Shown: piece after piece, positions 1-22,437 of the stretch
Numbering within the stretch: the stretch's first letter is position 1
How the letters are laid out: the number at the start of each line of letters is the position of its first letter
From: Azolla caroliniana
Lineage: Eukaryota > Plantae > Polypodiophyta
Direction of reading: 5' to 3'
Assembly (NCBI GenBank): GCA_043228905.1
Contig: JBHGNT010000001.1
Coordinates: 12,834,001-12,898,000, forward strand
DNA: 64,000 nt
The notes under the pieces: generated by a model
Told to the model about the DNA's origin: nothing
The model's database searches: none
The model's input: only the letters and a program-made list of their open reading frames with translations
Program-made: the position numbers and the translations under genes

Positions 1-1687
1 ATCGGGTCACGTAATGGTGAAATAGATTAAGTTGCCGAATAGTTGATGATACTGAGTTGACTCGCACACCACTGTGCCAGAATCGACATCCATCTTGAGA
101 TTATGATCAAGAGGGGTGGATACAGGTTTGCATTCAGTCATTCCGAACTTGTAGAGCAAGTTGAGAATGTAGTGCCGTTGAGAGATCATTATTCCGACTC
201 GTGTCCGAATTACTTCAATGCCTAGGAAGTAATGGAGCTCGTGCAAGTCTTTCATTTCGAATCTACCGGAGAGAAGTGATTTGACTTTGTTAATCTCGGA
301 AGATCCTTTCCTCCGATGACCAAATCATCCACATAAAGGATGATGACAATCGAGCTATCCGACTCATTTTGGATGTACAGGGAAGTGTCATATTTTGACA
401 TTCAAAATCTGATCTGATGAAGATATTGCGTGATCTTTCAGTGCCACGCATGGGGTGCTTGTTTGAGGCCGTATAGTGGCTTCTTGAGGTGGCACACGAC
501 GTTCAGATGATTACGCGATTCAAAACCGGGTGGCTTGATCATGTACACCTCCTCTTCCAATTCTCCTTGAAGAAAGGTGTTCTTGACGTCCATCTGGTGG
601 AGGTGCCACCCTTTTGCTGTCGCGATTGCAATTACGGTCCGCACAGTTGTCATCTTTGCCACTGGGGCAAAGGTCTCTTCGTAGTCTACGTCGTGCGTTT
701 GCGTGTATCCTTTCGCAACGAGCCATGCTTTAAAGCGATTTACGGAGCCGTCGACATTGTGTTTCACTTTGTAAATCCATCGACAACCAATCGCTTTCTT
801 GTGCGGCGTGTGAGGAACGAGATCCCATGTCTCGTTTTTGCATAACGCTTGCATTTCCTCATTCAACACATTGACCCATCGTGGATCCTTTACGGCTTCA
901 GAAAGCATCTCCGGCTCCGGCTCCCGTACTAAAGCTACCTTCATCATGAAGGCATAATGGTGCGCCATATAATCGTTGTAGCCAAAACAGCTTATGGGGT
1001 TCTTTTCACGGGTTGATTGGCAGAGTTTCTCGTTTACAGATACTAAGGCTTTCTTTGCTCCATTTATCCAGATGATTTGGATGTTCAGGCCTTCGAACTC
1101 ACTGTCGAGGGAGTGAGTCGATGCGTTGTCGATTGGATCTTCGTATTCAGACATCTTGGCCTTCCCTTTGTCGAGTTTCGGACTTGGTCGAAATGTGCTT
1201 TGCTCACTCGGGGGCTCCCATGGTCCACTAAGCCATGTCGTAATTGGGCGTTCATTGAACATGCGTGTGAGCCGATCTTCGTCTTCTATCTCCATTTCGG
1301 TGGATTCCGGGTTGAGCAGAGTCAGAGTCGAAGTTGTTTCTGGTGCGTACTAGGATGCGGACTCGTTGAAGACTACGTCTCGACTTGTTCGAGCTTTTCA
1401 GGTAGATAGGTTGTAGCATTTGTACCCCTTTTGTTCGAGTGAGTATCCTACGAGGATACATTTCTCCGACTTCGAGTCGAGCTTTTGTCGTGTATCATCG
1501 GGAATATGTACGTAGGTGATAGAGCCGAAAATGCGGACATGTGATAAGTCTGGCTTCTTTCCAAAGAACTTCTCATGAGGAGTTACGTCGTGTACACCTA
1601 AGGTTGTGCACCTATTCTTGAGGTATAAGGCCATGTTCGCCGCTTCTGCCCAGTATGATTTTGCAGGTTCTTCTCATTCATCATAGC
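1..1687 (-). mobile_element. Ty1/copia remnant: integrase C-terminus to reverse transcriptase, degenerate, runs off the window start
   Basis: Minus-strand ORFs 1398-1634 (SHVRIFGS..KLDSKSEKCILVGY), 438-1295 (TWDLV, LHQMDVKNTFLQG, LYGLKQAP) and 7-255 (MKDLHELHYFLGIEV). Homology stops abruptly at about 1687 (AMMNEKNL..YWAEA). Confidence 0.93.
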
Positions 1688-2073
1688 TTTTTCATCACCT
1701 TGGTAATTTGAGCCATATTGATTGTTTCTATTGTTCATTGCACAATATAACATCGTTTTTGAAGTGTGGGCAATTAGATAGAGTCACCCTTTGAAACTCA
1801 ATAAATATAAGTGATGTGCATGTATATCTCAATGTTATCTATTTTTGGGCAAGGAAGAACATGTCAAGGCATGATGTAACACGATGGTGAATAACACTTA
1901 CATCAATGTGTTACTCATGGATAAATATTGGATACACATTTTTTGGTGATATAAAATCATTGTTCCTCTATCGATTCTCTTTTAGTAATTCCTAGTTATA
2001 TATTGCAAGTTATATGTATCTAAGTTGATATTTAGACAGAACATCAAGGTTGCCGAAATTGTGAATTTCTAAG

Positions 2074-2169
2074 CTTTGCATTCTTTATACTCTTCAATGG
2101 GGTGCTTCGACGTTTCATGCAAGTCATATGGTTGGCATGATGGCTGCAGTGCTAGTTTCCATGGTTGAG
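2074..2169 (+). pseudogene. Isolated exon fragment of a nucleobase-ascorbate transporter (NAT) gene
   Basis: Translates as LCILYTLQWGASTFHASHMVGMMAAVLVSMVE, followed by a GT donor at 2170. Resembles the plant NAT motif IPYPLQWGAPxFDAGHAFAMMAAVLVSLIE. Neighbouring exons were not found. Confidence 0.8.
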
Positions 2170-2779
2170 GTAAATTTGTCATGTTTAAGTATGTTACTAA
2201 TACAAGAGGCATAATTGAAACTCTATTTTGGTTTTATTTGTTGTGAATTGGATACATGAATTCCCACAATGTGTTTTCATTATGTAACAGTTAATTTGTC
2301 AAGACCAAACCTATCTTTGATCAATATTGTTGTTGAGACCAAACCTTTTAGATTAGATGTTCTTGAATCTAAACCTTTGTGGGTTCCATAGCTTACTTGC
2401 TATGTTTCTTTCGTAGAGAGATTAAGGGCTATGGCTATGGAAGAGATGCTTAAAGGTTAAAAGAATTGTGTGTGGTTGCATTGTAGGAACTTAAGGACTT
2501 AAATGTTGAAGTTTTCTTAGAGAAAAACTCGGTATGTGTTTGTTTTGGCATTGTAGCAACTTCATGTAGTGAAGTTCTTTCTCAAGTTGAATGTTGTGAA
2601 TTATTCTTGCACATCACATGGTATATTCTTGTTATGATATATCTTCTGTTAGATATATCATTTTTCACTTCCATGAAACCATGATATATGCAATGTTACA
2701 TAGGCATGTCAAAGAAGATGGCATTGAAGGTGATCCTATTCTTTGAATGAAGGTGGTGTGAAGACGCACATACTCTCCA

Positions 2780-3440
2780 CGCTCACATACATGAAAATAT
2801 ACATACAAACAAGCAAACATACATTCATACACACACACACACACACAACAAACACATTCTAAACAAAAGAAATGTAGAAAAGAAAAACAAAAAGTACAAA
2901 AATGAAGAACAAAATAAATAAATACTTGTTAAAAATAGTAAAAACAAAAAATAAACACATTGCAAAATGATTGTATGTGAGTGATGCTAATAGTGATGAG
3001 TTTTGGCATCACTACCAACCTATTTTATTGTGACATGTATAGAATACACATTCACATAGATCTAACATGCACATATATAGAACACATATATACATACATA
3101 CATAGACACACTGAACATAGACACATGGCATAATACAATACATACAACACGTGCAATACAATACAATACATACATACATACATAAACATGGAATACAATA
3201 TAGTACATGTATACATACACATGCAATACAATACAATACAATACAATACATAAACATGGAATACAACACAATACATACATACATACACATGCAATACAAT
3301 ACAATACATAGACATGGAATACAACACAATACATACACACACATAACATATACATACATACATACAACCATGCATAAAATATGCCCAACTCATTCAAATA
3401 ATACAATGCAAATTGATATACATCTATAGGATATACATGC
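2780..3440. repeat. Low-complexity (ATAC/CA/ATACA)n compound microsatellite arm
   Basis: Degenerate ATAC/CAATA repeats; the reverse-complement counterpart of the TATG/GT tracts at 13080-13370 and 17317-19380. Confidence 0.9.
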
Positions 3441-3582
3441 ATTTTTCTATGTAAGGGTATTTAAAATAGTTGTTGTCAAAATATATATTGACAATAAGGG
3501 GTATTTTTATTAACTGTTTTTTTACAAAAGGGTTCTAAAATAGTGAAAAAACATATGTATAAGGGGTTTATAAAAGATATCT

Positions 3583-3628
3583 TGAACGCACGTGATACAA
3601 CCTCTTTAAATATAGTGGAGCCCCCGGG
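3583..3628. mobile_element. One terminus of a CCCG-ended DNA element (46-bp degenerate terminal repeat)
   Basis: TGAACgCACGTG...AGTGgAGCCCcCGGG, with the same length and spacing as 19576-19621. Followed by GTTGAC|AT, an 8-bp TSD interrupted by the copia element. Confidence 0.75.
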
Positions 3629-3634
3629 GTTGAC

Positions 3635-6600
3635 TGTCGAATACATGTGTATAATGGACGTATTCACACTATCCCGTTTTGGCCATTTATGTAATTAGCA
3701 TAAAGGGTAGTTGCCCTAAGTCGGTCACTATATATAGTGACCTTGTAACCTTTTTGTAAGGTTGGATGTTGTATTATTGCTTTATGGAATAAAGAGTCTT
3801 TTGTGTCTCTCTCTCTCTCTCTCTCTCTGTGCAACGACCTACAATCTCTCATACGCAGGTACTCAGATGAATCGAATGCTTCTTGATCTTCCGCATTGAC
3901 GACCTTGTCCCTAACATCTGGTATCAGAGCCTGCACAGTAGTCGGTCCTTCAATCCGCTGTCGGCCGTCGTCTCTGCGTTCGGTTTCCTGCGTCATTCGA
4001 AGAAGAGAGAAGAAGAAGAAAAACCAGGTTTGCATCTCATTGCGTTAGATCATCTTTGCTTGGAGTAAGCCAGCAGGTTGTACTCCGTTCCTTGTGATCG
4101 TAACCGCTCGAGGTGAAATCCCCCTGTGCAACATTGACACGATCGTGCTCCATTCGGTTTAACGGCATCCGAAGAGGTAATCAAACGCCGCTCGTTGTAA
4201 CCACTCGGTGCAGATCGGTCTCAAGACAACAACCCCAAATTCGTGCTTCATCTGGCTGATCGACATTCGAGAGGATCAGTTGGATCCGTCTCTCTCGTCG
4301 CTGCAGTCAACCGAAGCAGAATCGGTCCAGATAATCGGTTTCAATAATCGGTATTCGGCATATATATCCGAAGCGAACCGGGCTCACTCCGACTCGGCAA
4401 CATTCGGGAAGACCAGTCGGTTCTGTCCCTCAAGCTACCGGAGTCAACTCGAGCAAGTTCCGAAGCCGAACCGACTCGGGTTCAAATCTGACTAGAACGA
4501 TATCGGGTGAGCCAACCGGCTGCACTCCAACAAGGTTCGTAGTCAACTCCGAACCGAGCTCCGTCAACCGAAACCAAATTTGATGGCATCAACATCCGGC
4601 TCGTCAGAAATGAGTCTACGCAAGTTCGATGGATCGAACTTCAACTTCTGGAAGGAACAAATGCAGGACTATCTCATAGTCAAGGGGCAAATCGATCCCA
4701 TCGAAAATGAAGAACCTCCAGAAGGATACAAACCAATTGAGTGGCAAAAGCTGGACAGAATCGTCCGCGCCACGATTCGGATGCACCTATCGGAATCGGT
4801 ATACTTTACGGTGCAATCGTGTACGACAGCATTCGAACTGTGGAAAACACTGTCGGACACTTATGAAAAGAAGGTCGCCGCAACGAAGATGTTTCTGATC
4901 CGGCGCCTCTACAACTTGCGGATGAAAGAATCCGATTCGGTCCAAGCACACCTCAATGAGTACGAAAGCATAAGCTCCCAAATCTCGTCACAGGGGACGG
5001 CAATCGAGGATGAACTCAGAGCAATGATACTCATGAGCAGCCTTCCCTCATCATGGGAAACTTTCGTCACAACCGTGTGCAACGCGTCAACCACGGCTGT
5101 TAAATACTCCGAAGTCACGAGCGCAATCCTGACCGAAGCAGCTCGGAGAAAGTCTTTCGCCAAAGACTCAACAGACGACGCCTATGTAGTACAAGGTTCG
5201 ACAGACCGATCGAACATACGAGGAAGAGATTCCTCACGGCCGCCGAACAATCAGCGAAGACGGAGCCAGTCACGGGATAACCGAATCTGCAACTATTGCA
5301 AGAAACCCGGACACATCAAAGCCGACTGCCGCGCACTCAAGAACAAGAACAACAAGAAGAGTGGCCGGCATGAGGAGATCAATTACGTCAGCTTCTCGGC
5401 TGATGTACTACCGGACGACCCGAATATACTATCAATCGAAAATCCAGTCGGATCCGAAGTTCTGCTCACGACTGAAGAATCGAGCACATGGCTCTTGGAT
5501 TCGGGCGCGTCATTTCACGTGACTCCTCATAGATCCCAATTTCGGCAATATACGGTCCGTCACTCCGACTCAGTTCGAGTCGGCAACTCACAACACTGTG
5601 ACATCATCGGAATCGGCACAGTAGAGCTCAACCTTGCAGGTGGCTCTACACTTGTACTCCACAATGTCTGACATGTACCCGAGCTCTCAAGGCCATTGAT
5701 CTCAGTCGGACAACTAGATGAAGACGGCATTCGTGCCGGTTTTTCTACGGGAGGGTGGACACTCCACAGGGGGAACCTCCTGCTTGCTAGAGGACCCAAG
5801 ATACACTCCCTGTATCCGTTACATGTTACGCTCAGAGAGGGTAACCTGTTTTTGGTGGATATTCCTGTGTCATCACTATGGCACCGGAGATTAGGACACC
5901 TCAGCAAGGCCGGCATCACGCATCTATCTAGAGCCGGATACATCCCCAAACTCTCCTTCTCCGACCATCAATTCTGCGAGCATTGCCAGTATGGCAAACA
6001 AGCAGCCGTATCACACCCGACATCAGCACCAAGAGAAACGAGACCTCTCGATTTGGTCCACTCGGACGTCTGTGGCCCAATGCCGCATCAGTCTCTTGGC
6101 GGTGCCTCTTACTTCGTCAGTTTTATTGACGATTCGACTCGAAAGGTGTGGGCTTATCCAATTCGCACCAAAGATCGTGTCTTCTCGATCTTCTCCGATT
6201 GGCTCGCTATGGTAGAAAATCAAACCGACCGAAAGCTGAAATGCCTTCGGACCGACAATGGGGGAGAGTTTAAATCCGAAGAATTCGTCAAATTCTGCCG
6301 ACAACGCGGCATCCGACGTGAATTTACGGCACCACACAGCCCGGAGCAAAACGGGATTGCCGAACGCATGAATCGGACAATCCAAGAACGGATAGTTTCC
6401 ATGCTCCAACACTCCGGACTGTCGGATGGCTTCTGGGCAGAGGCTCTACTCACGGCAGTACACATAATCAATATGTCGCCAAGCAGACCTCTAGGACTTC
6501 AAATTCCTCAGGAACTATGGATCGGCAGTAAGCCGAATTACGACAAGCTGAGGATCTTCGGATGCGAGGCGTACGCCCTTATTCCGAAAGATGATCGCCG

Positions 6601-9069
6601 AAAACTTGCACCTCGGTCCAGGAAATGCATTTTCCTTGGATATGGATCCGACGGCGAAATGGGATACCGACTCTGGGACCCCGAACGCAGACAAATCGTT
6701 CGAAGTTCGGACGTTGTGTTCAACGAGTCGGCTATGACTCCATCAGTCGAAAAACCGATCGAAGTCCGAAGGGTAACATTTTCCGATGTGCCGACCCTTC
6801 AAGAAGGCCCCGCTCACAACACACGGTCAGCTTCACGGGTAGCTGAACCTTACACTACCGACTCGGACAACTCTGACTCGGCACAGCCGAATGATTCGGT
6901 TTCGGACCATCCGACCTCGATACCCGATGCGACCAGTCCAATCATACCTCGACGATCCGAGAGACTGTCGCAACCTCCGGAGAGGTATTCTCCTGGAATT
7001 TTCTTCACCGACGCCGGCGAACCGACGTCTTACGAAGAAGCATCGACATCTGTCGATTCAGCCACCTGGCATCTGGCGATGGAGTCGGAAATGCACTCCA
7101 TTCGGGCAAACAAGACTTGGGATCTGGTCGAATTACCTAGGAACCGACGTGCTCTTCCTTGCAAGTGGGTTTATCGACTAAAAGAGACGTCTGATTCGAC
7201 CACCCCAAAGTACAAGGCCAGATTAGTTGCGAAGGGCTTCCGACAAGAATATGGCGTCGACTTCGACGAGATTTTTTCACCAGTGGTGAAAATGACAACC
7301 CTTCGTTTTCTACTCGGCGTAGTGGCAGCCGACAACTTGGAGCTGATTCAGCTAGATGTCAAAACAGCCTTCCTCCATGGTGATCTCGAGGAGGAAATTT
7401 ATATGGAGCAGCCAAAAGGCTTCGTGGCAACTGGCCAAGAACATCTAGTCTGCCGACTCAGGAAGAGTCTATACGGCCTCAAACAGGCACCACGACAATG
7501 GTACAAGAAGTTCGACGACTTCATCCAATCGATCGGCTTCTCCAAAAGCGATGAGGACCATTGTCTCTTCACCAACACAGCTCAAGATGGATCACCCATC
7601 TTCCTCATCATTTACGTGGACGACATGCTAATTTCTGGACGCCACGCGGGCGAACTTGCCGATCTCGTTCGGCAACTGCGGTTGAAGTTTGCCATGAAGG
7701 ACCTCGGTCCGGCACGACACATCCTTGGCATGAAGATTAGTCGGCATCGCGATAAACGACATCTTTTTTTGTCTCAGACCGACTATATCGGACGTGTCTT
7801 GGAACGCTTCAACATGCAATCAGCCAAATCTGCTTCAACCCCGCTCCCCATGAATCTTCGGCTCTCTCAGCGAGACTGCCCGACATCCGGTTCGGAGGGG
7901 GAAGATATGAAGTCGGTACCGTATGCACCGGCAGTCGGCTCCCTTATGTACCTGATGGTCGCGACACGGCCTGATATTTCTCACGCCGTAGGAGTCGTTA
8001 GCAGATTTATGCACAATCCTGGCCGATCGCATTGGAACGCAGTCAAGCATGTGTTCAGATATCTGGCTGGCACAAAAGACCACGGCATTCTTTTCGGTCC
8101 GAACCGAACCTCAGGCGTAGTCGGTTACACCGACTCGGATTTCGCCGGCTGTATAGACAGTCGGAAATCAACAACCGGATACTGCTTCAAATTCGGCAAT
8201 GGAGCAATCTCGTGGAAGTCGAAACTTCAGGAGTGCACAGCGACCTCAACGACCGAAGCAGAATATGTAGCTGCGTCCGACGCAGCAAAAGAAGCTTTGT
8301 GGCTCGGTCGGCTGGCGCACACGTTTTGACAAGTCGACCATGACTCGGCTCCAGTTGTCTACAGCGACAGTCAAGGTGCTGTTGCCTTGTCGAAAAATCC
8401 GGTTCACCACAACGCCTCCAAACATATCGACGTTCGATATCACTTCGTTCGGGACTGCGTCATTTCAGGGAAAATCGGTCTAGAGAAAATATCCACAACC
8501 GACAATGTCGCAGATGGAATGACCAAGTGTCTTTCGGCAGACCGTTTTCGGTCTCTTCGGCATCAGATGGGCGTAACGACAAACCAGTCCGGTTAGAGCC
8601 GGACACAGAGCAGGATGGTTCCCGACAACCGACATCAGTTGCTTAATGATCGGCTTCAACTGTTCCGACCCGACCAGTTCGGTCTTCTGCCTTCGGACCC
8701 TGCCGACTCGAACAAAGCTGATATGTCCGAGAACCTAAGTCTATACCTGTAATCTAAGATAACCCATGTATACGCCCATTACGGGGGAGTGTCGAATACA
8801 TGTGTATAATGGACGTATTCACACTATCCCGTTTTGGCCATTTATGTAATTAGCATAAAGGGTAGTTGCCCTAAGTCGGTCACTATATATAGTGACCTTG
8901 TAACCTTTTTGTAAGGTTGGATGTTGTATTATTGCTTTATGGAATAAAGAGTCTTTTGTGTCTCTCTCTCTCTCTCTCTCTGTGCAACGACCTACAATCT
9001 CTCATACGCAGGTACTCAGATGAATCGAATGCTTCTTGATCTTCCGCATTGACGACCTTGTCCCCAACA
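3635..9069 (+). mobile_element. Full-length Ty1/copia LTR retrotransposon (Tnt1/Tork-like), young but with two nonsense mutations
   Basis: LTRs 3635-3916 and 8790-9069 (TG..CA) differ only by one visible substitution and one TC unit. TSD TTGAC at 3630-3634 and 9070-9074. PBS TGGTATCAGAGC (tRNA-iMet) 3919-3930. PPT 8781-8789. Confidence 0.97.
4580..8596 (+). pseudogene. Copia gag-pol polyprotein (Gag CCHC, PR, INT, RT, RNase H) broken by two in-frame TGA stops
   Basis: CNYCKKPGHIKADC, WLLDSGAS, LVHSDVCGP / RTDNGGEF / NGIAER, YVDDML, YTDSDFAG, KHIDVRYHFVR. All three ORFs are in one frame, separated by TGA at 5669-5671 and 8327-8329. Confidence 0.95.
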
Positions 9070-9261
9070 TTGACATCATGTATTGCACAATTTCAACATT
9101 ATCCAAATGGTTCGGATTGTGGCTTTTATGTGATGAAGACTTTACAGATGTTGGTCGAGGAGTTCTTACGAGGATGGATATCTCCGACGTTTGTAAGTGT
9201 GATTGCAAATGGATGTATCATGTGGATTTTGTATAGTTGTGTTCTTATACATATTTGGTGA
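9070..9261 (+). pseudogene. C-terminal half of a Ulp1/C48 SUMO-protease domain (catalytic Cys)
   Basis: Reads TSCIAQFQHYPNGSDCGFYVMK, matching the Q-x-N-x-x-DCG-x-Y-V motif of C48 peptidases. Confidence 0.75.
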
Positions 9262-9619
9262 TAGGGCACAGAGATGTGTTCACCAAATTTGAAGTGGATT
9301 TATTTTGGATTCAACTCGAAGGGTGGGCACAAAGGGTACTAGGATTTCCAACTACGACCGATGGCCCCATATTGTAAATTTTGTAAAGCTGCCATGGCCA
9401 TGGAAATTTTGTATACAGTGGATATTATAAATATGGTCATATAATTTGTATCCGAGAGGATATTGTAAATGTGGTCTTACATTTTGTAAATGACGGAATT
9501 TGTAATTATGGTCAACTTTTGGTGTACGACATATTTTTATATGGCGAAAAGACGACTCATTCATTGTATATCGAAAATACTTATTAATGGAAAAGTTACC
9601 AAAACTTTTGTTTTAGAAA

Positions 9620-9900
9620 AGGTTGTTTATCTCAAGTGTTTGTTTAGTGTCTTTTATCTCAAGTGTTTATCCGTTGTCTTTGATTCATAGTTTGATAAAC
9701 GTTGAGTGTCTTTTATCTCAAGTGTTTATCTGTTGTCTTTAAGTCATAGTTTAAGTGTTATTTATGTGAATTGTTTATCTCTTGCCTTTGATTCATAGTT
9801 TGAGTGTTTTTTTATCTCAAGTGTCTTTGATTCATAGTTTTAGATGTCTTTTAATCGGAACTCTCGTGTTTTTTATTCAAAGATCTGTTGTTTTGGACTC
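9620..9900. repeat. Degenerate tandem repeat with TTTATCTCAAGTGT and TTTGATTCATAGTTT units
   Basis: Several visible imperfect copies downstream of the Ulp1 fragment. Confidence 0.75.
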
Positions 9901-9960
9901 ATAATGTGATTGTTTTTTATTTACATATCAGTTGTTTTTTGTGTTTGCTATTTTTTAAGT

Positions 9961-10260
9961 CGGTCACCAAACCTATATTAATTAGTTCATCCAATTGTTT
10001 TAAATAAGGTCACCCAACCTTTTTTAACATGTTGGCCCAACCTATTAATCAAGTGGCCCAACCTATGAATCAGGTCACCCAACCTATTAATAAGGTCACC
10101 TAGGACCTATTAATCAGGTTGCCCAACCTGATTAATGGGGTCATCCTTTCTATTATAAGGTCTCCCAACATATTAATCAGGTCACCCAACCTATATTAAT
10201 CAAGTCGCCCAATTTTTTTTTCATAAGGTCACCCAACTTATTAATCAGGTCGCCCAACCA
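9961..10260 (+). repeat. Cluster of GGTYRCCCAACC motif repeats at about 20-24 bp spacing
   Basis: About a dozen copies, e.g. GGTCACCCAACC and GGTTGCCCAACC. The same motif lies on the minus strand at 21999-22190. Confidence 0.85.
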
Positions 10261-10874
10261 AATTTTAAGAAATGGCCAAAAGAATAGTCATATTAATGTG
10301 TTTTTAATCACACAGTTTGAGTTAGTATAATCCCTAAACCCTCGTTTTAATAAAAACTAATTCATCCTCCAATTAATAAGATTCACATCTTATTCATATT
10401 TTCATAGAGGCAACTTTGATTCATACTCCAATTAATTGCATCTAATTCTGAAATTTTCAATTAATCACATCCTACTATCTGATTAATCACATCAAGATTT
10501 AGAAGTTCACTATGATGAATCCAAATGACCATGATTTTATCACCTCATTGTATGATTCTGAGGATGGTTATGCGTCATCATACTCCACAACTATTGACGA
10601 AAAGTTGGACTCATCTACGTCCAACGAAGTGTTGGCGTCGCCTACATCTGACAAAGACTGTGAGTTGACTTCATCCGAACGGGAGGAGGAGGTTGATCCC
10701 TTCATCTATTGTTTGGCCAGGTCCTGGTATTTTTCTTTCACAAGAGGTATGTATGATTTGATGCTTAAAGATTTATCGGGTCAAGTTAAGGTAATGTTTG
10801 AAACATTAAGCGTCATCGCAAGGGGTGCACCTCTCAATCTCCATGCATGGAGGCGCATGAAGAGTCGTCTCATG

Positions 10875-11068
10875 TGTTGAGAGTCAAACTCAATTTCCCA
10901 TAGAGATAGGTTTCACACTAGCTCATAGACATACCAGGCTAGTCTTGTAAATAGTAGAAAGGGCCCTTGCCCTAGTTTAGTTGGTATTTAAACCAACCCC
11001 TTGTAACTTAGTTACTATTGGAAGTATTTTGGTTAATGTAACATACAGTCTTTGATCTCTGTCTTAAG

Positions 11069-11105
<37 letters not shown>

Positions 11106-11106
11106 G

Positions 11107-11141
<35 letters not shown>

Positions 11142-12517
11142 TATCTTCTGTTGCATTACACAACCAACTCCATTTATTTACATGGTATCAGAGCGTGTGG
11201 TTGCTTAATCGAATCTATTCAACTGTGTTGTGATACACGCCGAAGATCAACAGAATCGGCTCATCAACAGAGAAGAAATCAACATAATGAACACTCAGAT
11301 GGGAAGCGCTCTTCCTTCCGAGAAGCTTGACAGAACGAACTTCACATCTTGGGAATACAAGATGCATCAATACCTTGTCAGACAAGGTTATTGGAGCTAC
11401 ATTGAAGGAGCTCACGAAACTCAACCCAACCCAACACACGCCGACTATCCCGCTTGGGAGCAAGCCACAAGTCGTGTGTTGTATTGCCTATATTCGAGAT
11501 CATATGGTTGGCTATATTCGAGATTCGAAAACGCCGCGAGAAGCTTGGGGAAACCTCAAGAAGATTTTTGCGGCCAACATGGCTGCACGAAAGCTCCAGC
11601 TTCGATAGGAGCTAAACAACATGCAACAGAGGGACATGTGAATCAAAGGCTATACCTTAAAGATCAAGGAGATGTGAGATGCCCTCAGATCGATTAATGT
11701 CATAATCGACGATGACGAGATGGTGCAAATATGCCTCGGTGGCTTAGCACCCCGATTTGGCTCGATTAGATCGATCATCCTTGCAAGGGAGAACCCTCCT
11801 TCATTTTTCGATCTCCAATCAATATTGTTGGTTGAGGAAAATCATGCCTCACAAAGGAGCAACGCACTAGAGGGTCATATGCTCTACTCCCAGTCAGATG
11901 ATAGAAGAAATTGCGGTCGTGGAAGTAGAGGTCGATTCAAACAAGGCCGTAATGGTCGACAGACTCAAGAGCGTAATTCCCACCAATGGCAAGCAGATAG
12001 GAACAATCCTCGAGAGTTCGGCAGAAGGGGGAGTCATCACGCCGGACCAAGCAATTGTAATACCCTGATCGAATGCGGGTATTGTGGAAAACACGGCCAC
12101 TATGAAGAGGAGTGCCATAAAAAGGTACGAGACTCAGCTTCAACTAGCTGACAGTTCACGAACTACACATCAAATTCCGACTACGACAATCGTTGCAAAA
12201 TGTTTACAAATTACGCCACGAATTCCAACTACGGTGACCATGGCGGAATGTTCATAATGAGGCACGAAGCACACTCGATGTCAGCACATGCCTCAACTAG
12301 TGCCTCCGCCTCTAATAACGTATGGTTTGTTGACTCAGGAGCATCCAACCACATGACGTCACATGAAGATTGGTTTCGAGAATTATGAAAACCCGAACGA
12401 CCCGAATATGTCGAGACAGGAGATAACACGACTCATCCAATATAGCATATTGGGAATGTCCCATTCGGAAACAATGGCAAAAAAACCTATCTCTAGAACG
12501 TATTGCATGTCCCTACC
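10875..12517 (+). mobile_element. 5' half of a Ty1/copia element: LTR, PBS, degenerate gag and protease, truncated
   Basis: LTR 10875-11182 (TG..CA, contains GT/CA microsatellite). PBS TGGTATCAGAGC 11183-11194. gag MNTQMGSALPSEKLD, CGYCGKHGHYEEEC; PR WFVDSGAS. Ends abruptly after NVLHVPT. Confidence 0.92.
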
Positions 12518-12864
12518 AACGATCTGACGATTGTCTGCAGAGAAGGCAACGCTCAGAACGTCTTTAGAGTGTCTAGTGAATCGACGGTTTGTGGCACCGG
12601 AGTAGAGATCCCACAGATGAAGCTCTCCATCCCAGCTCCCTGATACTGATAGAGCAAACTTCCTATCGGAAGAGATGGCAACATCTTATATGAAGTGACC
12701 ATGACCTGTGAGGCATTTCTTCGTATTGCCATAATTTTCGTCTCGGGTGAGGGACCACACAACAAGAAACTTGTCTCGAGAAGCAGAGACAATCATGTAC
12801 CCATCGATGATGGGGCAAGAAATGGAGGTAAGCCAATTGTTGTGGCCGCTGAGTTTTCCACCAT
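12518..12864 (-). pseudogene. RACK1: RACK1 (WD40 ribosome-associated scaffold) 5' fragment, pseudogenised
   Basis: Manual translation: [109 protein letters not shown]. Unmistakable RACK1 WD1-WD3. ATG at 12864, one stop, and a deletion/frameshift after the start. Confidence 0.93.
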
Positions 12865-13077
12865 GGTTTCGATCTGTCTCTGTCTCTATCTCTGTCTCTC
12901 CCCTCTTTCTTGCCCCACATCAAAATATGTATACTCCCCTCCCTTTCATTCTCTTCATCCCCCCCCCCCCCCCCCATTTTTTGCTAAAACACGAATGTAA
13001 TCCCCCTCCCCCTTTTCTTCCCCCCTTTTTATGAAACAATTAGCATGACTTTGTCACGCGTTTTAAAAATAATGTTG

Positions 13078-13079
<2 letters not shown>

Positions 13080-13121
<42 letters not shown>

Positions 13122-13374
13122 ATGTGCCTTACGTACGTATGTATATTTGGTGTGTGTGCATATGTATGTATTATATTGCATGTGTTGTATGTATGTATCT
13201 ACTATATGGGTAATTGTGTATGTTCTATGCATGTGCTTATGTATGTATTGTGTATATGGCATGTGTGTATGTATGTATTGTATGTACAACATGTGAGTGT
13301 GTGTGTGCGTGTGCACGCGTGTTCTATAGATGTGCTTATATATGTATTGTATGTATATCATGTGTCTATGTATG
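13080..13374. repeat. (GT)n/(TATG)n low-complexity tract
   Basis: Direct reading; continues after the nested gypsy element at 17317. Confidence 0.9.
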
Positions 13375-16300
13375 TGTGAAAGTGTTTTTAGAATCTAAGC
13401 CATTGAACATTAGGAGAATATAAAGTATAGATAATTCACCTTTTGAGGATAAGAACACGAACTAAGACCTTAGGGAAGAAGTCAAAAGTAAAAGTACGAG
13501 ACCAAGAGAAAAGTAAAAAGAGAAAACGCAGACTATAAAAAACAGTAAAAATAGAATGGTCATAACTCCCTCGTTGTTTATCCAAATATCACGTTTAAAT
13601 ATGGATTAGAAAGCTTGTAAAAAGAGCTTTCTATAGCTTTTTAAATCGCTTAATTTGGATATCGGATGAGGGAGATATGACGATTAGAAGGTTGATGTGT
13701 CATAGCTAAAAATAGGGAGATAAAAAGCTTCTAAAAATAGCATGAACGTGGATAAGAAGAGGAAGGTTATAAAAGAAGAAGTAATATTAGTGAGAAGGAA
13801 AAAGAGTGAAGGCCAAAGAGTGGATGAGGAGTGTTAGGAAGAAGTGTCTTTGTGGAAGAGGAAGTGTCTTAGAAGAGGAAGGTCTTTGGTTTTAGTTCAA
13901 TGTGGAGTTTGTCTCCTTTGTATTCTCTTGATGTTGGAATATCAGAATATTCTTATTTCTTGCTCGCTTTCTCTATCTTTTTTCTTAGTTTCTTGAGTTA
14001 TACTCTCTAATCATAATTACCTAGAACTATATAATATATTATGATTTTCAACTCCATCTAATCGGTTTGATCAAGCCCTCATATAGTGTATAACTATCTA
14101 TTATCTTATACATTCTATCATTTTTGGCGCTCCAGGGAGGGTCGATCCTTTCCGTATAGGAAGAGAAGTTATCATTTAATTGTGTTACTATATTACATTA
14201 ACTTAGCTATGCAATTTGCATTTTCGGGTGAAAGAACACAAGATGCTGGTGCCTTTTTGGCATGCTTTGAGCATCATGCCATATCTATTGGACGCATCAC
14301 CGACAACGAAAAGTTGCCCTTGTTGGTAGCTACATTCTATGGTCGTGCTCGAGATTGGTATGACTCTCTTCCGCAAAATGAACAAGGAGAATATCAATTA
14401 TTGGTGCATCAATTTCGTACAAGATATATTCAATGGAAAAGTGCAACTGAGGTAAGGGAGGAGCTTTTTCAACTAAAGATGGAATCACCTTTTGGTTTTT
14501 TAGAGTATGAACGAAATTTCCAAGAATTGTGGACGACGTGGATTCGTCTTCGTGGTGGCACCGAAGACGAGTGGTTTAAGATAGAACAATTTAAGGTGGG
14601 CCTTGATATGCATTTCCGTTTGGAGGCAAGCTTGAAGGATCCAACGACTTTTCAAGCTCTTCTCCAAGTTTGTCAAGATTATGATCGACAAGTGAAGATG
14701 ATGAGTTCCATGGGGGATCCCCAAATGACGGCTTTGGGTGCAAATTTGATGCCTCGTGCCAACTTTCAAGCCTCATCTTCAATTGTGCATGGGGGACAAG
14801 TGTTTCCAAATGTGTATACCACCACAACAATAAACCCAACAAGTATATCCCAAGAAGTTGAACAAGTGAGGAGTGAACAAGATACCATGGCATTGGTAAA
14901 TCGGCGCTTTGATGAAGTGATGGCCCACTTGCAACAATCCCAAGCAATTTCCAACACTATTCCCGATGGTGGTGGCTCTAGAGGGCATCAAGGTGTAATT
15001 TGTTATTCTTGTCAAGAGGAGGGACACTCAACAAGATGTCCTCATCGACAACAAAGAGGTATGGAAAGAGACATGTATGAAGTGCAACGGAATGGACAAC
15101 GACCTATCAACAATGGAGTCGAAGGAGGCGAATCCATAACACTTCCAATGACTCAGGTTCCTACAATTCCTCATAATGTGAATCTTCTTAATTTTATTGA
15201 TGATAGTGATAGTGCTTGTGAAGTAGCTCTTGTGAAAAGGACAAGAGCCTCGCAAAAGGAGAAAGAAGTTGAAGGAGAATCTAGTGACTCAAGACAAAAG
15301 AAGAAGTCTAAGGAGAATGAGAAAGAGGACAAATTGAGAAGGAGACACTCTAGAAGGAAGATAAAGATGAAGGATATTCCTATGGGAGAAGGTGTAGAAT
15401 CTTTCAATCGGAAGCATGAATTGATTTCAAGTGGACCAAGGATAACATGGCCGCAACTTCTCCAATTATCTCCCACATTACGAAAGGAGTGGGGGCGACT
15501 TGCAAGTATTCGCCAAAGTCGGAAGACTGTGCATTATGTGGGAATCGTGCGAGTAGAAGATCGAAAGGACATACGACCCACCATCCCCGTCTCCATCAAA
15601 GGGTTTCACATCAAAGATGCGTTGGTTGATAGTGGTGCTAGAGTAAGCTTGATTTCTGAATTTGTGGTAAACAAAGTGGGAATTCCTATTAGTAGGTCAT
15701 CTTCAACAAGGGTGGTTGTAGTAGATAGTGGAGTGGTGCATTGCACAAGCATAGTGGAGGATGTGTTCATCAAGTGTTTTGGAATAAGAGGAGAAGCTTG
15801 CAACAAATACCACATCAACTTGAAGGAAAGTGTATCAATTTCCCCAAAGCTTCGGCAATTGAGTGTTGAACAAAAGGAAGAATTTATGCAAGAGTTCAAC
15901 GCATGGTTACAAGAAAGTTCCAATTATAAGATGGAAGATTTGAGGTGTGTGTCACCTATAGTTTTGGTTCCAAAGAAGAATGAGATCAATTTCAAACCCT
16001 TGAATGATTCGACCAAACGAGATGAATTTTCACTTCCTTCTCGAGATGAGATTGTCGATAAAATGGTTGTTTATACAAAACAAGGTAGTGTGGACAATAT
16101 GTTGTGCCAAAAAGGATTTCATGTGGATGATTCAAAGATTAACATAATTACAAAGATGACAATTCCGACAAGTCTTGAAGCTTTGAAAGTATTTGTGCAA
16201 AAGGTGCGCTCGCTCGAAAGATTCATTTATATGTTGACATGCTTACTGCTATCAAGAGTGATGTATCCCATGGCCCTACTAGTCTTTGGAGAGTTAACGA

Positions 16301-17316
16301 AGACATAATGATTGTGGTAACCTCTTTCTTTGTGTTGACAAGGAGAAAGATGATGATGGAATTGTCAATGTGTGTGTGGGTGTGTCTAGGAGTGTGAGGT
16401 TTTTCCTACCGATTAGCGGGGGTTTTACTCACATCTTTTTATTTTCTTTTTATTATATCTCTCTCATTGTCTATAGCCAAGAGATTGGCGAGAGAGCTTT
16501 TGTTTGTTAAGTACTGCCAATAAGTGCTTCGCCATAAATGGCTTAGCCTCTAACAAGGGGGAGGGCTAAATGTGAAAGTGTTTTTAGAATCTAAGCCATT
16601 GAACATTAGGAGAATATAAAGTATAGATAATTCACCTTTTGAGGATAAGAACACGAACTAAGACCTTAGGGAAGAAGTCAAAAGTAAAAGTACGAGACCA
16701 AGAGAAAAGTAAAAAGAGAAAACGCAGACTATAAAAAACAGTAAAAATAGAATGGTCATAACTCCCTCGTTGTTTATCCAAATATCACGTTTAAATATGG
16801 ATTAGAAAGCTTGTAAAAAGAGCTTTCTATAGCTTTTTAAATCGCTTAATTTGGATATCGGATGAGGGAGATATGACGATTAGAAGGTTGATGTGTCATA
16901 GCTAAAAATAGGGAGATAAAAAGCTTCTAAAAATAGCATGAACGTGGATAAGAAGAGGAAGGTTATAAAAGAAGAAGTAATATTAGTGAGAAGGAAAAAG
17001 AGTGAAGGCCAAAGAGTGGATGAGGAGTGTTAGGAAGAAGTGTCTTTGTGGAAGAGGAAGTGTCTTAGAAGAGGAAGGTCTTTGGTTTTAGTTCAATGTG
17101 GAGTTTGTCTCCTTTGTATTCTCTTGATGTTGGAATATCAGAATATTCTTATTTCTTGCTCGCTTTCTCTATCTTTTTTCTTAGTTTCTTGAGTTATACT
17201 CTCTAATCATAATTACCTAGAACTATATAATATATTATGATTTTCAACTCCATCTAATCGGTTTGATCAAGCCCTCATATAGTGTATAACTATCTATTAT
17301 CTTATACATTCTATCA
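13375..17316 (+). mobile_element. Non-autonomous Ty3/gypsy-derived LTR element (gag-protease only, TR-GAG-like)
   Basis: 746-bp LTRs 13375-14120 and 16571-17316 appear identical. TSD GTATG at 13370-13374 and 17317-17321. PBS TGGCGCTCCAGGGAGGG at about 14125. PPT AAGGGGGAGGG before 16571. Confidence 0.95.
14209..16308 (+). CDS. Gag, aspartic protease and residual RT fragments in one open frame (no YxDD, RNase H or integrase)
   Basis: FSGERTQDAGAFL, GRARDWY, CYSCQEEGHSTRC, LVDSGA, SPIVLVPKK, FKPLNDSTKRDEFSLP. The first ATG after the PBS is taken as the start. Confidence 0.8.
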   Translation: MQFAFSGERTQDAGAFLACFEHHAISIGRITDNEKLPLLVATFYGRARDWYDSLPQNEQGEYQLLVHQFRTRYIQWKSATEVREELFQLKMESPFGFLEYERNFQELWTTWIRLRGGTEDEWFKIEQFKVGLDMHFRLEASLKDPTTFQALLQVCQDYDRQVKMMSSMGDPQMTALGANLMPRANFQASSSIVHGGQVFPNVYTTTTINPTSISQEVEQVRSEQDTMALVNRRFDEVMAHLQQSQAISNTIPDGGGSRGHQGVICYSCQEEGHSTRCPHRQQRGMERDMYEVQRNGQRPINNGVEGGESITLPMTQVPTIPHNVNLLNFIDDSDSACEVALVKRTRASQKEKEVEGESSDSRQKKKSKENEKEDKLRRRHSRRKIKMKDIPMGEGVESFNRKHELISSGPRITWPQLLQLSPTLRKEWGRLASIRQSRKTVHYVGIVRVEDRKDIRPTIPVSIKGFHIKDALVDSGARVSLISEFVVNKVGIPISRSSSTRVVVVDSGVVHCTSIVEDVFIKCFGIRGEACNKYHINLKESVSISPKLRQLSVEQKEEFMQEFNAWLQESSNYKMEDLRCVSPIVLVPKKNEINFKPLNDSTKRDEFSLPSRDEIVDKMVVYTKQGSVDNMLCQKGFHVDDSKINIITKMTIPTSLEALKVFVQKVRSLERFIYMLTCLLLSRVMYPMALLVFGELTKT

Positions 17317-18122
17317 GTATGTATGTGTTAATGTTTGTGTGTGTGTGTGTGTGTGTATTTTCTATATATGCATATGTATGTATGTATTGTATGTATCATA
17401 TGTGTAGCATGTGTCTATGTACGTATGTATGTGTTATGTGTGTGTGTGTGTTCTATATTTCTACATATGTATGTATGTATTATGTATTGTATATATAGCA
17501 TGTGTCTATGTATGTATGTGTTATGTGTGTGTATTTTCTATTGATGTACATATGTATACATATTGTATTGCAGGTGTATATATGTATGTGTGTGTATGTA
17601 CATATTGTATTGTATTGCATGTGTGTGTATGTACATATTGTATTGTATTGCATGTGTGTGTGTGTGTTTATGTTCTTTACATGTGCATATGTATGTATTC
17701 TATGTATGGCATGTGTGTATGTGTTATATGTGTGTATTCATGCATACAATACAATATATACACACACACACACATACAACATGCACCACATACATATATA
17801 CACATGCACGTATGTATGTGTGTAGGTATGTACATTTGTATTGTATGTATGCATGCATGTATGTACATGTATGGATGTAAGTTGGTAACATTTATAAATG
17901 TATCATTGTAGGCATGTGTACGTATGTACACAATGTATGAATGATATATGTATGTTCATGTACGAATGCATGTATGTGTATATATGTAATATGTATTGTA
18001 TTTATGTATCTTTTCAAGGTATTTTCGTGTTTAGTATGTGTATGGCTCATATATGGATGTATGTTTGCAATATGCACATAATATATATGCATATATCCAA
18101 CGTATGTGTAAGTATACATATA

Positions 18123-18160
<38 letters not shown>

Positions 18161-18776
18161 CTTATAAGTATTGTAATTTGTATGACCCTGTATTACCTAT
18201 GTATATATATGGTGATATGTGGAATATGTATGTATGTATGTATCTGTATACATATATGCATATGTCCATGTACATGATTCGATGTGTTTGGATGTGTGTT
18301 TATAATATGTGCATAATATGTATGTATGTGTATGTGTATGTATATATGTACTATTACATTGTGTATGACCATGTGTGTATTTGTGTTTTGTGTATGTGGT
18401 GATATGTAATAATGTATGTACATATGTAATGTATGTATGTGTGTAATATGTACGTAAGATGCACTCATATATATGATGTGTGTGAATGTATGTAAATATT
18501 TAAGTATTGAAGTTTGTATGGTCCCATATAACCTATATATATATATATGGTGATATGTGGAATAAATGTACATATGCAATATATATAGGAATGTGCTATT
18601 TGCCCCCCCTAAAATAAAAAAAACCTTTGGCTATTTTGGCCCCCCTATTTTGGCTAAACCACCACCACACATTTTGGCTATTTGCCCCCCCCCCACCCCC
18701 CCCCCCCCAAGTTGTTTTTTTTTAGGGGGGGCAAATAGCCAAAATGGAGGGGCAAATAGCGCATTCCTATATATAA

Positions 18777-18833
<57 letters not shown>

Positions 18834-19335
18834 ATAATGTATCTATATATGTAATGTATCTATGTGTATGTAAATTTGTATATTGTGTAATATGAATGGA
18901 TTATATGATATGTAGCATGTAATTTATTTATGTGTTTGTGTGTGTGTATATATATATATATAACTTGTTTGTATGTATGTAGATTTGTAATACATATAAT
19001 ATGTCACTATACGTATTTATGTGTATGTGTATGTGTGTGTATATATAATATGTAATTTTTTTATGTATGTATATTTTTTGTGTTTGGTATGTATATATGT
19101 ATTTGTATATAATTGTGTGCATAATAATATATGTGTGTAATATGTAACATACAAAATATGTATGTAGCATGTATGCATTTACATATATGTATTTGTGTAT
19201 GTATTTACATATGGTAATATATATTTGTACATATATTCATGTTTAGTCAGTATGCATTATAAATGTGTGTAATGCATGTATATACATATTCATGGATGTA
19301 ATGTTTGAATGTAGGTATATGTGCATGTATGCATG

Positions 19336-19367
<32 letters not shown>

Positions 19368-19380: not shown

Positions 19381-19575
19381 CTCCAAAATTGACTATTGTT
19401 TGCATAATATATTCTTTACTATCTAATTGAAATATCTAATATTTCATGGGCTTATGTAATTTTTTTCTATAGCGTAATTGATAACACCCTTATGTAAATA
19501 TATTTTTTATGTATTTATTAATACCCTTATGTCTATATATTATGTATCTCAATGGTTAATTTAAACCCCTTTTAA

Positions 19576-19621
19576 TGAACTCACGTGCTATCATACAAGT
19601 TTTGACAGTGAAGCCCTCGGG
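19576..19621. mobile_element. Second terminus of the CCCG-ended DNA element
   Basis: TGAACtCACGTG...AGTGaAGCCCtCGGG followed by ATGTCAAC (19622-19629), the reverse complement of GTTGACAT. Confidence 0.75.
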
Positions 19622-19629
19622 ATGTCAAC

Positions 19630-21350
19630 CCTCAAACACAATGGTGTGGTCTGACGGTTCACTAGAAATTGTCTGAATCACGATATCTGCAAGACTCCGC
19701 ACGGTGCCAGTCACCTCGTTGTTTAGTGGATCGCAAAAGACTACTGCATTGGTTAGCTTAGAAACTATGTGCCACATCTTTGTCCACAACACCCAATGGC
19801 CCTCGACCACGATCGGAATGAAGATGAAATCATGCTCGGCCACCTTCCTGATGATGTCTCGCCCCTCCGTTGTTAGCTTGTGTAGTTGCACCCATAGTGG
19901 GACGACTATGGTAAACTGTTCTGACACCTCATGTGGCAGCGACTACTCCATCCACATGGTGAATAATGTCATCATCCATGTGGATGCCCTTTCTCCATCC
20001 TTGCACATTGTCTCAATTTGCGACTCTGTAACATCAACGGCGATATCGAGTCGTGCGTTGGTCAGCTGATACCTGTATACATAAGCATGCATGCATCATG
20101 AATCGAGCCACAATTTATGATGGATAGAGAATACAAATTGTAATCCACAAATCATCAACCTAACAAAATGTTTGTCTAGTGTTTGGATCCATGTTCTGAC
20201 GGCCTTGGCATATGCTCAATTTTTATCGTGGCCACATTCGGTTTAGTGTCATCTAAATCTGATGTTAATGGGACAACATCTGTGTTTGAGTCCACCTCTT
20301 CCATCTAACTTGCATTTTCGACCATCTCCGTCTCAATGGCGTCGTCACATCGGATGGGTTTTGAGCCTCTGTTGTATCAGTGGAAACACCACACTCTTCG
20401 GTGGATATCCCCGCCTTTTTACACTGTTTCCCCATGAATAGACACATGTTATTATTTAAATTCTGACAATAAACTCTCCAACACTAAAAAAGACTGAAAG
20501 GCTCGCTCATACTTACATAAGAATCCAATCTTGAGGCAATCTTCTTCTTCAACATCTCCAACTGTTCATCCTTTTTGGAGTCATAGATGGACATCTCATG
20601 CTCCATAAATCTCGCCACGAACTCTGCCTCTATGTTGATTTGGAGTTTAACTGGAGTGGAGTTGAACCTCAAAACAACCCTAACCATCAACTTCCGGATG
20701 TATGATTGCCGATTTCTGTGGTACTTGATTTCGGGGTCCATGAAACGCTTCAGCGATCTTTGGCGCTCATAGCTATTGAAGCATGCCCCTGGAGTACCCT
20801 CCTCCTCCTCTATCTGCATCCCTCGTGGCAACATTATACATGTTTCCATGTTGCATTTTTTGCGATACCACTTTGGTAAGAGGCAGCAATACTCAGTCAC
20901 AATACATGCACGAGCCTTGTTCCCCTTTGCATCTCTTCCAACCTTATACAACGAGTTTGGGATCTCACCATCTATTGTTTATGTGTTAGATATGCTAGAC
21001 CATTTGTTACATAAAGTTTTAGATAATACAGTGAGACCATATCCACATACCATTTGGAGGAGCATCTTTGTCAACTAATGCTAGGCCCTGTATGGGGTCA
21101 ATCCGAGGACCATGAACCCCTAGTGCCTGATCCATGCTCTTCCCACCCTTAGACATGTCGGTTGCACAACATCTAAAATGTCTTCTACTGAAAACCCTTT
21201 AACAAATCATCAACCAACATACATGTATCACACATCATTACCACTAGCATTGCAAAATTGGTTCGTCACATACCTCTCTTCGATTGAATATATGCCACCA
21301 TTATTGGAATCCCACTACTCTTTGTACTTGGACCTAGTAGCCATCTACAT
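19630..21350 (-). pseudogene. N-terminal, multi-exon part of a Ulp1/C48 protease-domain gene (transposon-associated type)
   Basis: ORF 19625-19927 contains IFIPIVVEGHWVL (catalytic His) and VVFCDPL (Asp). Upstream exon-like ORF 20484-20951 ends at a GTAAGT donor. The 5' limit is approximate. Confidence 0.7.
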
Positions 21351-21998
21351 GATCAAGCATAAGCAAAACCCTAAATATTTTATGAAATCAGGAATCAAGC
21401 AAAATCCTAAACATAATCCTGAACCCTAAAATCTCAACATGAAAATGATATGTTTTACACCAAAAAATTTAAACCCTAATGCAAGGAAAAGAAAACATAT
21501 AGAAATGACGCAAAATCGTAAATCAAGCATTTAATAAGAAATCAAACATTTTCTGAATTTAATACTCAAGGACACCCAATATCATCTTTAACCAAGCAAA
21601 GCATTAAACCCTAAACCCTTAATAATCAATCATCAATAATGTCTAACAATGATCAATAAACTAAATAGTTTCTAAACAGTTCCTAAAAAATAACCCATCC
21701 TTGGATCAAGACAAACTTTAAATATTTCTAAAATCATAATATCAAGCTAAACCCTAAATCTTCTCCCGAACCCTAATCCCTCGACATGAAAAATCCTTGC
21801 ACAAAAAAAAAGAAGTAGATAAAGTAGAGACAAACAAAAATACACATCTAGGAAATATATGGGTCGCTATGGCAGATGTGATTAATTGATTTTGTCAATG
21901 GCTGACTGCTTGAATCACTTTCCCGGCAAAAAACCCTGTCAATCTCATTTGAAAAGAATGAGAGAGAATGACAAGTTTCAAGGTTTTATTATAGTCAG

Positions 21999-22190
21999 CG
22001 GTTGGGCAACCTGTTTCATCAGTTGGGTGACCAAAACACCGAATGGATTTGGGTAACCACAACACTGAATGGGTTGGGCGACCATGTTTTACTATGTAGG
22101 TTGGGCAACCACAATAGGTAGGTTGGGCAACCTCTGACAGGGTTGGGCGGGTGACTGAGGACTTAGAGTTGGGTGACCTCTGCCAACTTT
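21999..22190 (-). repeat. Second cluster of GGTYRCCCAAC motif repeats, upstream of the Ulp1 gene
   Basis: GGTTGGGCAACC and GTTGGGTGACC copies on the + strand. Confidence 0.85.
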
Positions 22191-22437
22191 TTTGGTTGTG
22201 CATTTTTTTATTATCCAAATCAGACAATGCAGATCGCAATGGGTTCTTACTGCTTAATAAACAGTAATGATAATACACATCAACGGAATCAATTAAGTAA
22301 CCACCGCCGCTGTAACTAAGGTCTTACCACTCTTGGTCTCCTTTTCCATTCGCCATGCTTTGAGCAACCCACACCATCTATGGCCGCAATTCCTGCACCA
22401 GCCCTATTTATGATTTGGTGTATAATAGACACAGCGA

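What the first reader, a model, noticed from the sequence alone, without database searches (positions are those of the whole stretch)
1688..12517. About 10.8-kb inversion (or mis-oriented assembly segment) revealed by split elements
Reversing 1688-12517 resolves four anomalies at once. (i) The copia LTR-gag-PR half (10875-12517, +) becomes collinear with the INT-RT half (1-1687, -), with roughly 0.8 kb missing judged against the family copy at 52-54 kb. (ii) The Ulp1 His/Asp half (-) and Cys half (+) land on one strand on either side of an 8-bp TSD. (iii) The two 46-bp termini change from direct to inverted. (iv) The ATAC arm (2780-3440) takes the same polarity as the TATG arms. RACK1 is also cut exactly at 12517/12518.
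Basis: partly seen in the sequence, partly recalled or inferred. Interest (0 to 1): 0.75.

Follow-up and report, generated by a model that had tools for sequence, protein, structure and literature searches.

The report
Ordinary inversion splitting nested plant transposons
A 10.8-kb block of jumping-gene remnants in this plant assembly lies flipped, with about 730 and 785 bases missing at its two ends; it is likely a real but ordinary chromosome break-and-rejoin event that hit no working gene.

Summary
The inversion is in the assembly. Intact copies elsewhere in this genome give the original order for three nested elements (a copia retrotransposon, a non-autonomous DNA transposon with 8-bp target duplications, and the Ulp1-bearing element both sit in), and the copia's missing LTR lies upstream beside the predicted 5-bp duplication. 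The joins share 0-1 bases and lie away from transposon ends, so end-joining after double-strand breaks is the likely cause, not transposase action or recombination between repeats. The cut RACK1 is a dead captured fragment; an uninterrupted host copy lies on C13. An assembly error is unlikely (no N gap, no private indels at the joins, a second inversion with repair-type filler in a sister copy) but read evidence was inconclusive. No hotspot was shown: outside the window, 1 of 31 paired family ends and 0 of 28 LTR pairs are flipped. Ordinary; low interest. Side finding: the DNA-transposon family is unclassified here and also carries a spliced RPS8 copy.

The parts
1..1687 (-). Copia element 1, INT-RT half (stops and frameshifts); continues upstream to its 3' LTR at G000:C1:12832906-12833182
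1688..1689 (.). Junction 1: TT, 0-2 bases not assignable to either partner, 0-1 bp microhomology; about 730 bp of copia (end of protease to start of integrase) lost here
1690..12518 (.). Inverted block, about 10.8 kb
1690..3628 (+). A-end part of the non-autonomous CCC-ended DNA transposon (internal DNA, ATAC arm 2780-3440, terminus about 3583-3628)
3629..3634 (+). First part of the 8-bp target duplication GTTGACAT (completed at 9070-9076 after the copia 2 insertion)
3635..9069 (+). Copia element 2, a young passenger inside the block (LTRs differ by 1 substitution in 281 aligned bases, TSD TTGAC)
9070..10874 (+). Host element: Ulp1-like Cys half and downstream repeats; ends in the copia 1 TSD TCATG (10870-10874)
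10875..12518 (+). Copia element 1: 5' LTR 10875-11182, PBS from 11183, gag and most of protease
12518..12518 (.). Junction 2: one shared base (A); about 785 bp of the DNA transposon lost here
12518..12935 (-). Captured RACK1 exon-1 piece, with an in-frame stop; 75% identical to the host copy on C13
13080..19390 (.). TATG-rich arms of the DNA transposon (13080-13374, 17317-19390), interrupted by a young Gypsy-type insertion 13375-17316 (identical 746-bp LTRs, TSD GTATG)
19576..19629 (.). B terminus of the DNA transposon (to 19621) and its 8-bp TSD (19622-19629)
19622..22200 (-). Host element: Ulp1-like His/Asp half and upstream part (outer limit approximate)

Best explanation
Window 1690-12518 is inverted relative to the ancestral order with about 730 bp and about 785 bp lost at its ends, likely a real deletion-inversion-deletion made when double-strand breaks 10-12 kb apart were rejoined the wrong way round by non-homologous end joining. 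Shown: ancestral order, both losses, junction sequence (0-1 bp shared, 0-2 unassigned bases), breaks inside elements and away from their ends. Inferred: order of events (Ulp1 host first; copia 1 and the DNA transposon inserted into it; the inversion came after both, since it cuts both), that breaks plus end trimming, or four breaks with loss of two small pieces, caused it, and that it exists in the plant rather than only in the assembly. Predicted effect: none on host genes; it finished off two already dead elements.
For: Three element families give the same ancestral order; both TSD pairs match only in the reverted order. Junctions: J2 shares one A, J1 0-1 base (bases after 1687 in 11 copia copies). 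No BLAST hit at E 10 between the two lost regions with flanks. The lost 785 bp has 11 near-full-length matches in the genome, all at sister-element loci, none by the window; neither lost piece has a close match in the window or the 20 kb upstream. For reality: one 100-N gap in 884 kb scanned, 35 kb from the block, none at the joins; no private indels in 400 bp of copia beside each join or in 1690-2760 and 12519-12870, only substitutions, mostly transitions; no near-identical un-inverted haplotype in the assembly (best other hits 94-98%); a sister copy on C18 carries its own three-break inversion with losses of about 24-30 bp and an about 40-bp filler resembling nearby sequence, which looks like repair rather than assembly. 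Passages read: Chlamydomonas inversions not tied to active TEs showed no micro- or macrohomology and short deletions, read as NHEJ (10.1101/2022.05.23.493040).
Against: No read or independent assembly was shown to span either join. Losses of 0.7-0.8 kb are longer than the few to about 100 nt described at irradiation-induced Arabidopsis inversions, 20 of 23 of which had 2-23 bp microhomology (PMC8581144 passages). The two losses are oddly alike: 2-5% by chance under log-uniform sizes (a post-hoc figure resting on an assumed size range). The ancestral junction bases are read from relatives 2-13% diverged, so a short microhomology could be hidden; both partners have TCAT a few bases before J1. 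LTR identity alone does not single out the partner LTR (96.6% against 81-96.0% for family LTRs).
Confidence: 0.72

Rival explanations
1. Assembly artefact: a 10.8-kb piece was placed backwards and its ends trimmed or lost.
For: No independent span of the joins was obtained; similar-sized losses on both sides could reflect trimming; a scaffold gap lies 35 kb away.
Against: Scaffold joins here carry 100 N and neither junction has any; contigs are long and resolve 100%-identical LTR pairs; no shared repeat at the joins for an overlap assembler to use; no private indels next to the joins; two reciprocal false joins would be needed; the lost 785 bp is not left over on a small contig.
Confidence: 0.13
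2. Replication template switching (FoSTeS/MMBIR) or microhomology-mediated joining: a stalled fork jumped about 11.6 kb to the opposite strand, copied back 10.8 kb and jumped forward again, or both forks of one replication bubble broke, which would explain the matched losses.
For: delINVdel variants in humans are ascribed to these routes (PMC6286558 passages); losses of similar size; weak TCAT likeness before J1; filler at the C18 sister event.
Against: That paper found at least 3 bp microhomology at all eight junctions; here 0-1 bp. No templated insert at either window junction.
Confidence: 0.12
3. Transposon-driven inversion: alternative transposition from the DNA transposon's ends, ectopic recombination between inverted repeats, or cleavage of a foldback hairpin.
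For: One break lies inside the DNA transposon both here and on C18 (2 of 10 RACK1-carrying copies with both ends seen, 0 of 22 others; Fisher p 0.09).
Against: Breaks are kilobases from the termini with no TSD at the joins; no homology between the break regions; arms are same-polarity in intact sisters, so it is not a foldback; lost regions fold about as well as shuffles (-86.6 vs -83.6+/-5.4; -107.3 vs -97.9+/-5.0, 20 rough shuffles); without the window 1 of 9 vs 0 of 22, p 0.29.
Confidence: 0.03

Closest known systems
delINVdel complex structural variant (PMC6286558, passages read)
   Same: Inverted middle segment flanked by two deletions.
   Different: The human junctions there had at least 3 bp microhomology; here 0-1 bp. 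Lies in plant transposon debris, no gene affected, not validated by reads.
Spontaneous and radiation-induced inversions repaired by NHEJ in Chlamydomonas (10.1101/2022.05.23.493040) and Arabidopsis (PMC8581144); passages read
   Same: Inversion with sequence loss at the joins; no long homology.
   Different: Losses here are longer (0.7-0.8 kb) and nearly equal; the Arabidopsis set mostly had 2-23 bp microhomology.
Inversions by alternative transposition in maize (PMC8225341) and by ectopic recombination of Galileo (PMC2775673); search listing and start of abstract only
   Same: Inversion with a DNA transposon at a breakpoint.
   Different: Breaks here are internal to the elements, with no terminus, TSD or paired repeat at the joins.
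Pack-MULEs / Pack-TIRs (PMC5861414, PMC8277862; search listing and start of abstract only)
   Same: The cut DNA transposon is non-autonomous, multi-copy and carries host gene pieces (RACK1; RPS8 in other members).
   Different: Ends are CCCGGGGGCT(C/T)CACT with a short imperfect inverted repeat and a constant 8-bp TSD; long TIRs and 9-11-bp TSDs typical of MULEs (recalled) are not seen; no transposase could be tied to it.

Membership tests
delINVdel structural variant | Middle segment inverted relative to the ancestral order | tested here: met
delINVdel structural variant | Sequence lost at both flanks | tested here: met
   712-738 bp in 9 of 10 measured copia copies, 658 in one; 783-791 bp in 7 of 7 measured sisters
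delINVdel structural variant | Lost pieces not relocated | tested here: met
   Met for the 785-bp piece genome-wide; for the high-copy copia piece checked only in the window and 20 kb upstream
delINVdel structural variant | Junctions validated by reads or PCR | tested here: inconclusive
   Only contig-level public data were laid, on junction 1 alone; see Tried and rejected
Alternative-transposition inversion | Breakpoint at a transposon terminus with TSD (feature recalled) | tested here: not met
Ectopic-recombination (NAHR) inversion | Inverted homologous repeats at both breakpoints | tested here: not met
   no hit at E 10 between the lost regions with flanks
MMBIR/FoSTeS or MMEJ product | Microhomology of about 2-3 bp or more at the joins | tested here: not met
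   0-1 bp and 1 bp, judged from relatives
Scaffolding mis-orientation | N gaps or unpolished sequence at both ends | tested here: not met
Foldback element (for the cut DNA transposon) | Long modular arms in inverted orientation | tested here: not met
   arms share one polarity in intact sisters
Pack-MULE (for the cut DNA transposon) | Host gene fragments between the ends | tested here: met
   RACK1 piece; RPS8 in other members
Pack-MULE (for the cut DNA transposon) | Long TIRs and 9-11-bp TSD (recalled) | tested here: not met
   about 17-bp core, imperfect to about 46 bp; 8-bp TSDs
Pack-MULE (for the cut DNA transposon) | Related autonomous element encoding a MuDR-type transposase | tested here: inconclusive
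   No transposase tied to the ends in the loci inspected by ORF listing (part of 52 cut from view); one transposase-like ORF near a B end (L199) has relatives without such ends

The most novel reading that the evidence does not exclude
The RACK1-carrying subfamily of an unclassified CCC-ended, 8-bp-TSD DNA transposon is a portable fragile site: its long strand-biased TATG/CA simple-sequence arms provoke breaks that are repaired as local inversions (2 of 10 copies), and the matched 730/785-bp losses record breakage at both forks of one replication bubble.
Probability: 0.07. Interest if true: 0.5.

Novelty: new member of a known kind. Interest (0 to 1): 0.15.

Why it matters
Little by itself: one more small inversion in transposon-rich DNA, with no host gene touched. 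It is a clean demonstration that nested elements and their target duplications let a rearrangement be mapped to the base from one assembly, and it gives a rough rate (outside the window 1 of 31 paired DNA-transposon ends, 0 of 28 TSD-flanked LTR pairs). It would matter more only if a census showed this transposon family to be a breakage hotspot or left and right losses to be generally matched. The unclassified transposon family with captured RACK1 and spliced RPS8 may deserve its own look.

Tried and rejected
Public reads: 15 runs hold part of 1200-3000, all as assembled contigs. Four runs laid on 1100-2760: none of the 32 listed pieces (1258 not shown) spans 1687/1690; in all four the contig starting at 1690 runs on into the un-inverted sister sequence; in X3 the depth of the junction bin is fully explained by that contig. 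This is uninformative, since these contigs drop minority paths: of 6 sites private to the window copy, only 2038 shows the window's base in X1. Junction 2 was not tested with reads. Exact 29-base junction patterns in metagenome contigs: 0 matches each (the tool may omit this genome). Hotspot test: not significant; the end list is a lower bound (top 40 rows, 100 of 124 pattern rows, 4 ends); four neighbouring pairs of same-type or outward-facing ends were not counted. In the LTR baseline (884 kb) 28 direct pairs with TSD and 2 inverted candidates were returned; one was set aside as a 1.9-kb 84% internal match, leaving the window's; offsets up to 25 bp were allowed, so some TSD matches may be chance. 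Hairpin folding of lost regions: no clear excess. Search for an autonomous partner: nothing tied. The 150-bp repeat after the N gap is a common repeat, not a contig overlap. Earlier notes near this place, or with the word 'inversion': none. Papers: four searches, three papers read as passages only, no supplements; no search was aimed at this organism, so no claim is made that the inversion or the transposon family is unpublished.

Full report
Setting. The window is G000:C1:12834001-12898000 of a 523-Mb, 1503-contig assembly, a land plant by its RACK1 gene and element types (inference). The first 22 kb are nested transposable elements. The only N run is 47759-47858.

Copia 1. Window 1-1687 (minus) encodes INT-RT and 10875-12518 (plus) is LTR-PBS-gag-protease. 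Of 11 close family copies fetched, 10 allowed the gap between the halves to be measured: 712-738 bp in nine, 658 bp in one; so about 730 bp, not 0.8 kb, is lost. The predicted 3' LTR lies upstream on the minus strand (L011 8906-9182), followed by the reverse complement of the TCATG that precedes the 5' LTR. The LTRs differ at 10 of 220 non-microsatellite bases; the 3' LTR has a separate 32-bp deletion removing the PPT and first 20 bases. LTR identity alone is not diagnostic (96.6% against up to 96.0% for a family LTR); the TSD and the host continuity are.

The DNA transposon. Window 1690-3628 and 12518-19621 are two parts of one non-autonomous element. In sisters on C4, C7, C8 (two), C15, C2, C3, C14, C12 and C18 the RACK1 piece is followed by further sequence and then by the equivalent of 1690 onwards; the intervening stretch is 783-791 bp in the 7 sisters measured and is absent here. 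It has 11 near-full-length matches in the genome, all at sister loci. Ends are CCCGGGGGCT(C/T)CACT, TSDs 8 bp; here GTTGACAT, split by the young copia 2 (3635-9069). Arms are of one polarity in intact sisters, so the element is not a foldback. The RACK1 piece has a stop and is 75-76% identical to an uninterrupted host copy on C13.

The Ulp1-bearing host. Sisters run continuously from window 19622 (minus) into 9071-9073 (plus), and from 10874 into the sequence beyond the upstream LTR. This third family gives the same ancestral order. Pfam support for Ulp1 is sub-threshold; the label rests on the His, Asp and Cys motifs seen in translation and recall.

Junctions. J2: copia matches to the A at 12518 and the transposon from the same A, 1 bp shared. 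J1: copia to 1687, transposon from 1690, TT between; 3 of 11 copia copies have T at the next base, and one substitution would extend the transposon side, so 0-1 bp shared and 0-2 bases unassigned. No homology between the break regions; no terminus or TSD at either join. Structure: X, 730 bp lost, 10.8 kb inverted, 785 bp lost, Z.

Real or artefact. For real: no N at the joins and one gap in 884 kb scanned; no private indels beside the joins; no un-inverted near-identical haplotype; and a sister on C18 whose ends share a TSD but are parallel, with two adjacent pieces each flipped in place, losses of about 24 and 30 bp and about 40 bp of filler resembling the smaller piece. Against certainty: nothing independent spans the joins (details under Tried and rejected), and the two losses are similar in size (2-5% by chance under assumed ranges). 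I put an artefact at about 0.13.

Mechanism. Inferred: double-strand breaks inside copia 1 and the DNA transposon, loss of 0.7-0.8 kb at each, and blunt re-ligation of the middle piece backwards by non-homologous end joining. It postdates both insertions; the window's transposon copy is 1.6-2.5% from its four nearest sisters over 1690-2760, so the event is recent on that scale; it cannot be ordered against copia 2 or the Gypsy-type insertion. Template switching is possible but lacks microhomology; transposase- or homology-driven routes fail their defining tests.

Frequency. Among paired ends of the family, 30 face inwards and 2 (window, C18) are parallel with a shared TSD (lower bounds). In 884 kb, 28 TSD-flanked LTR pairs are direct and only the window's is inverted. 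Excluding the window, no excess. An earlier unreviewed note reports another locally flipped retroelement in this genome (e1-10586396; not tested).

Comparison. The layout is the delINVdel class (PMC6286558, passages); homology-free inversion joins with deletions are described in Chlamydomonas (10.1101/2022.05.23.493040, passages), and microhomology-rich ones in irradiated Arabidopsis (PMC8581144, passages). No supplements were read. Verdict: observation confirmed and refined; new member of a known kind; interest 0.15.

Noticed in passing
L048 about 6240-6455 and L049 about 3890 (G000:C18 about 4755740-4761890): A sister copy of the same DNA transposon carries its own complex inversion: two adjacent pieces flipped in place, small losses and an about 40-bp filler.
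   Followed up: yes
window 3583-3628 and 19576-19621; genome-wide: Large family of non-autonomous elements with CCCGGGGGCT(C/T)CACT ends (124 exact matches to the 17-letter motif), 8-bp TSDs and long same-polarity TATG-rich arms; superfamily and transposase not identified.
   Followed up: partly
L097 2626-3213 (= L200) and L182/L201: Other members of that family carry an intron-less RPS8 copy: four collinear exon blocks, 85-94% identical to an intron-containing host gene on C22, next to what looks like the 3' end of a LINE (recalled motif). A processed mRNA copy apparently spread by a DNA transposon.
   Followed up: partly
L199 4095-5951 and 7116-7949: Transposase-like ORFs (619 and 278 aa; no Pfam hit for the first, weak HTH for the second) flanked by long arrays of a short palindrome; relatives in L056, L153, L170, L139, L022, L177/L178.
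   Followed up: partly
L011 about 9182 (just upstream of the window): Copia 1 has a 32-bp deletion removing the PPT and the first 20 bases of the 3' LTR, with TTC on both sides.
   Followed up: yes
window 11072-11139 vs L011 about 8940-9005: The microsatellite in the 5' LTR is (TG)n then (CA)n, able to pair as a hairpin, where the 3' LTR and family copies have (CT)n then a degenerate CA tract.
   Followed up: no
window 13375-17316, 36584-42346, 3635-9069: Three very young LTR insertions (LTR pairs with 0-1 substitutions), one of them a short Gypsy-type element with gag-protease and truncated pol.
   Followed up: no
L044 1-3725: A copy of the copia 2 family (94% identical) sits about 0.7 kb from the C4 sister of the DNA transposon, much as copia 2 sits in the TSD of the window copy; probably coincidence or shared target preference.
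   Followed up: no
L183 19-898: Fragments with an N6/N4 DNA methylase hit (PF01555, E 1e-8), matching the methylase-carrying transposon family in earlier notes.
   Followed up: no
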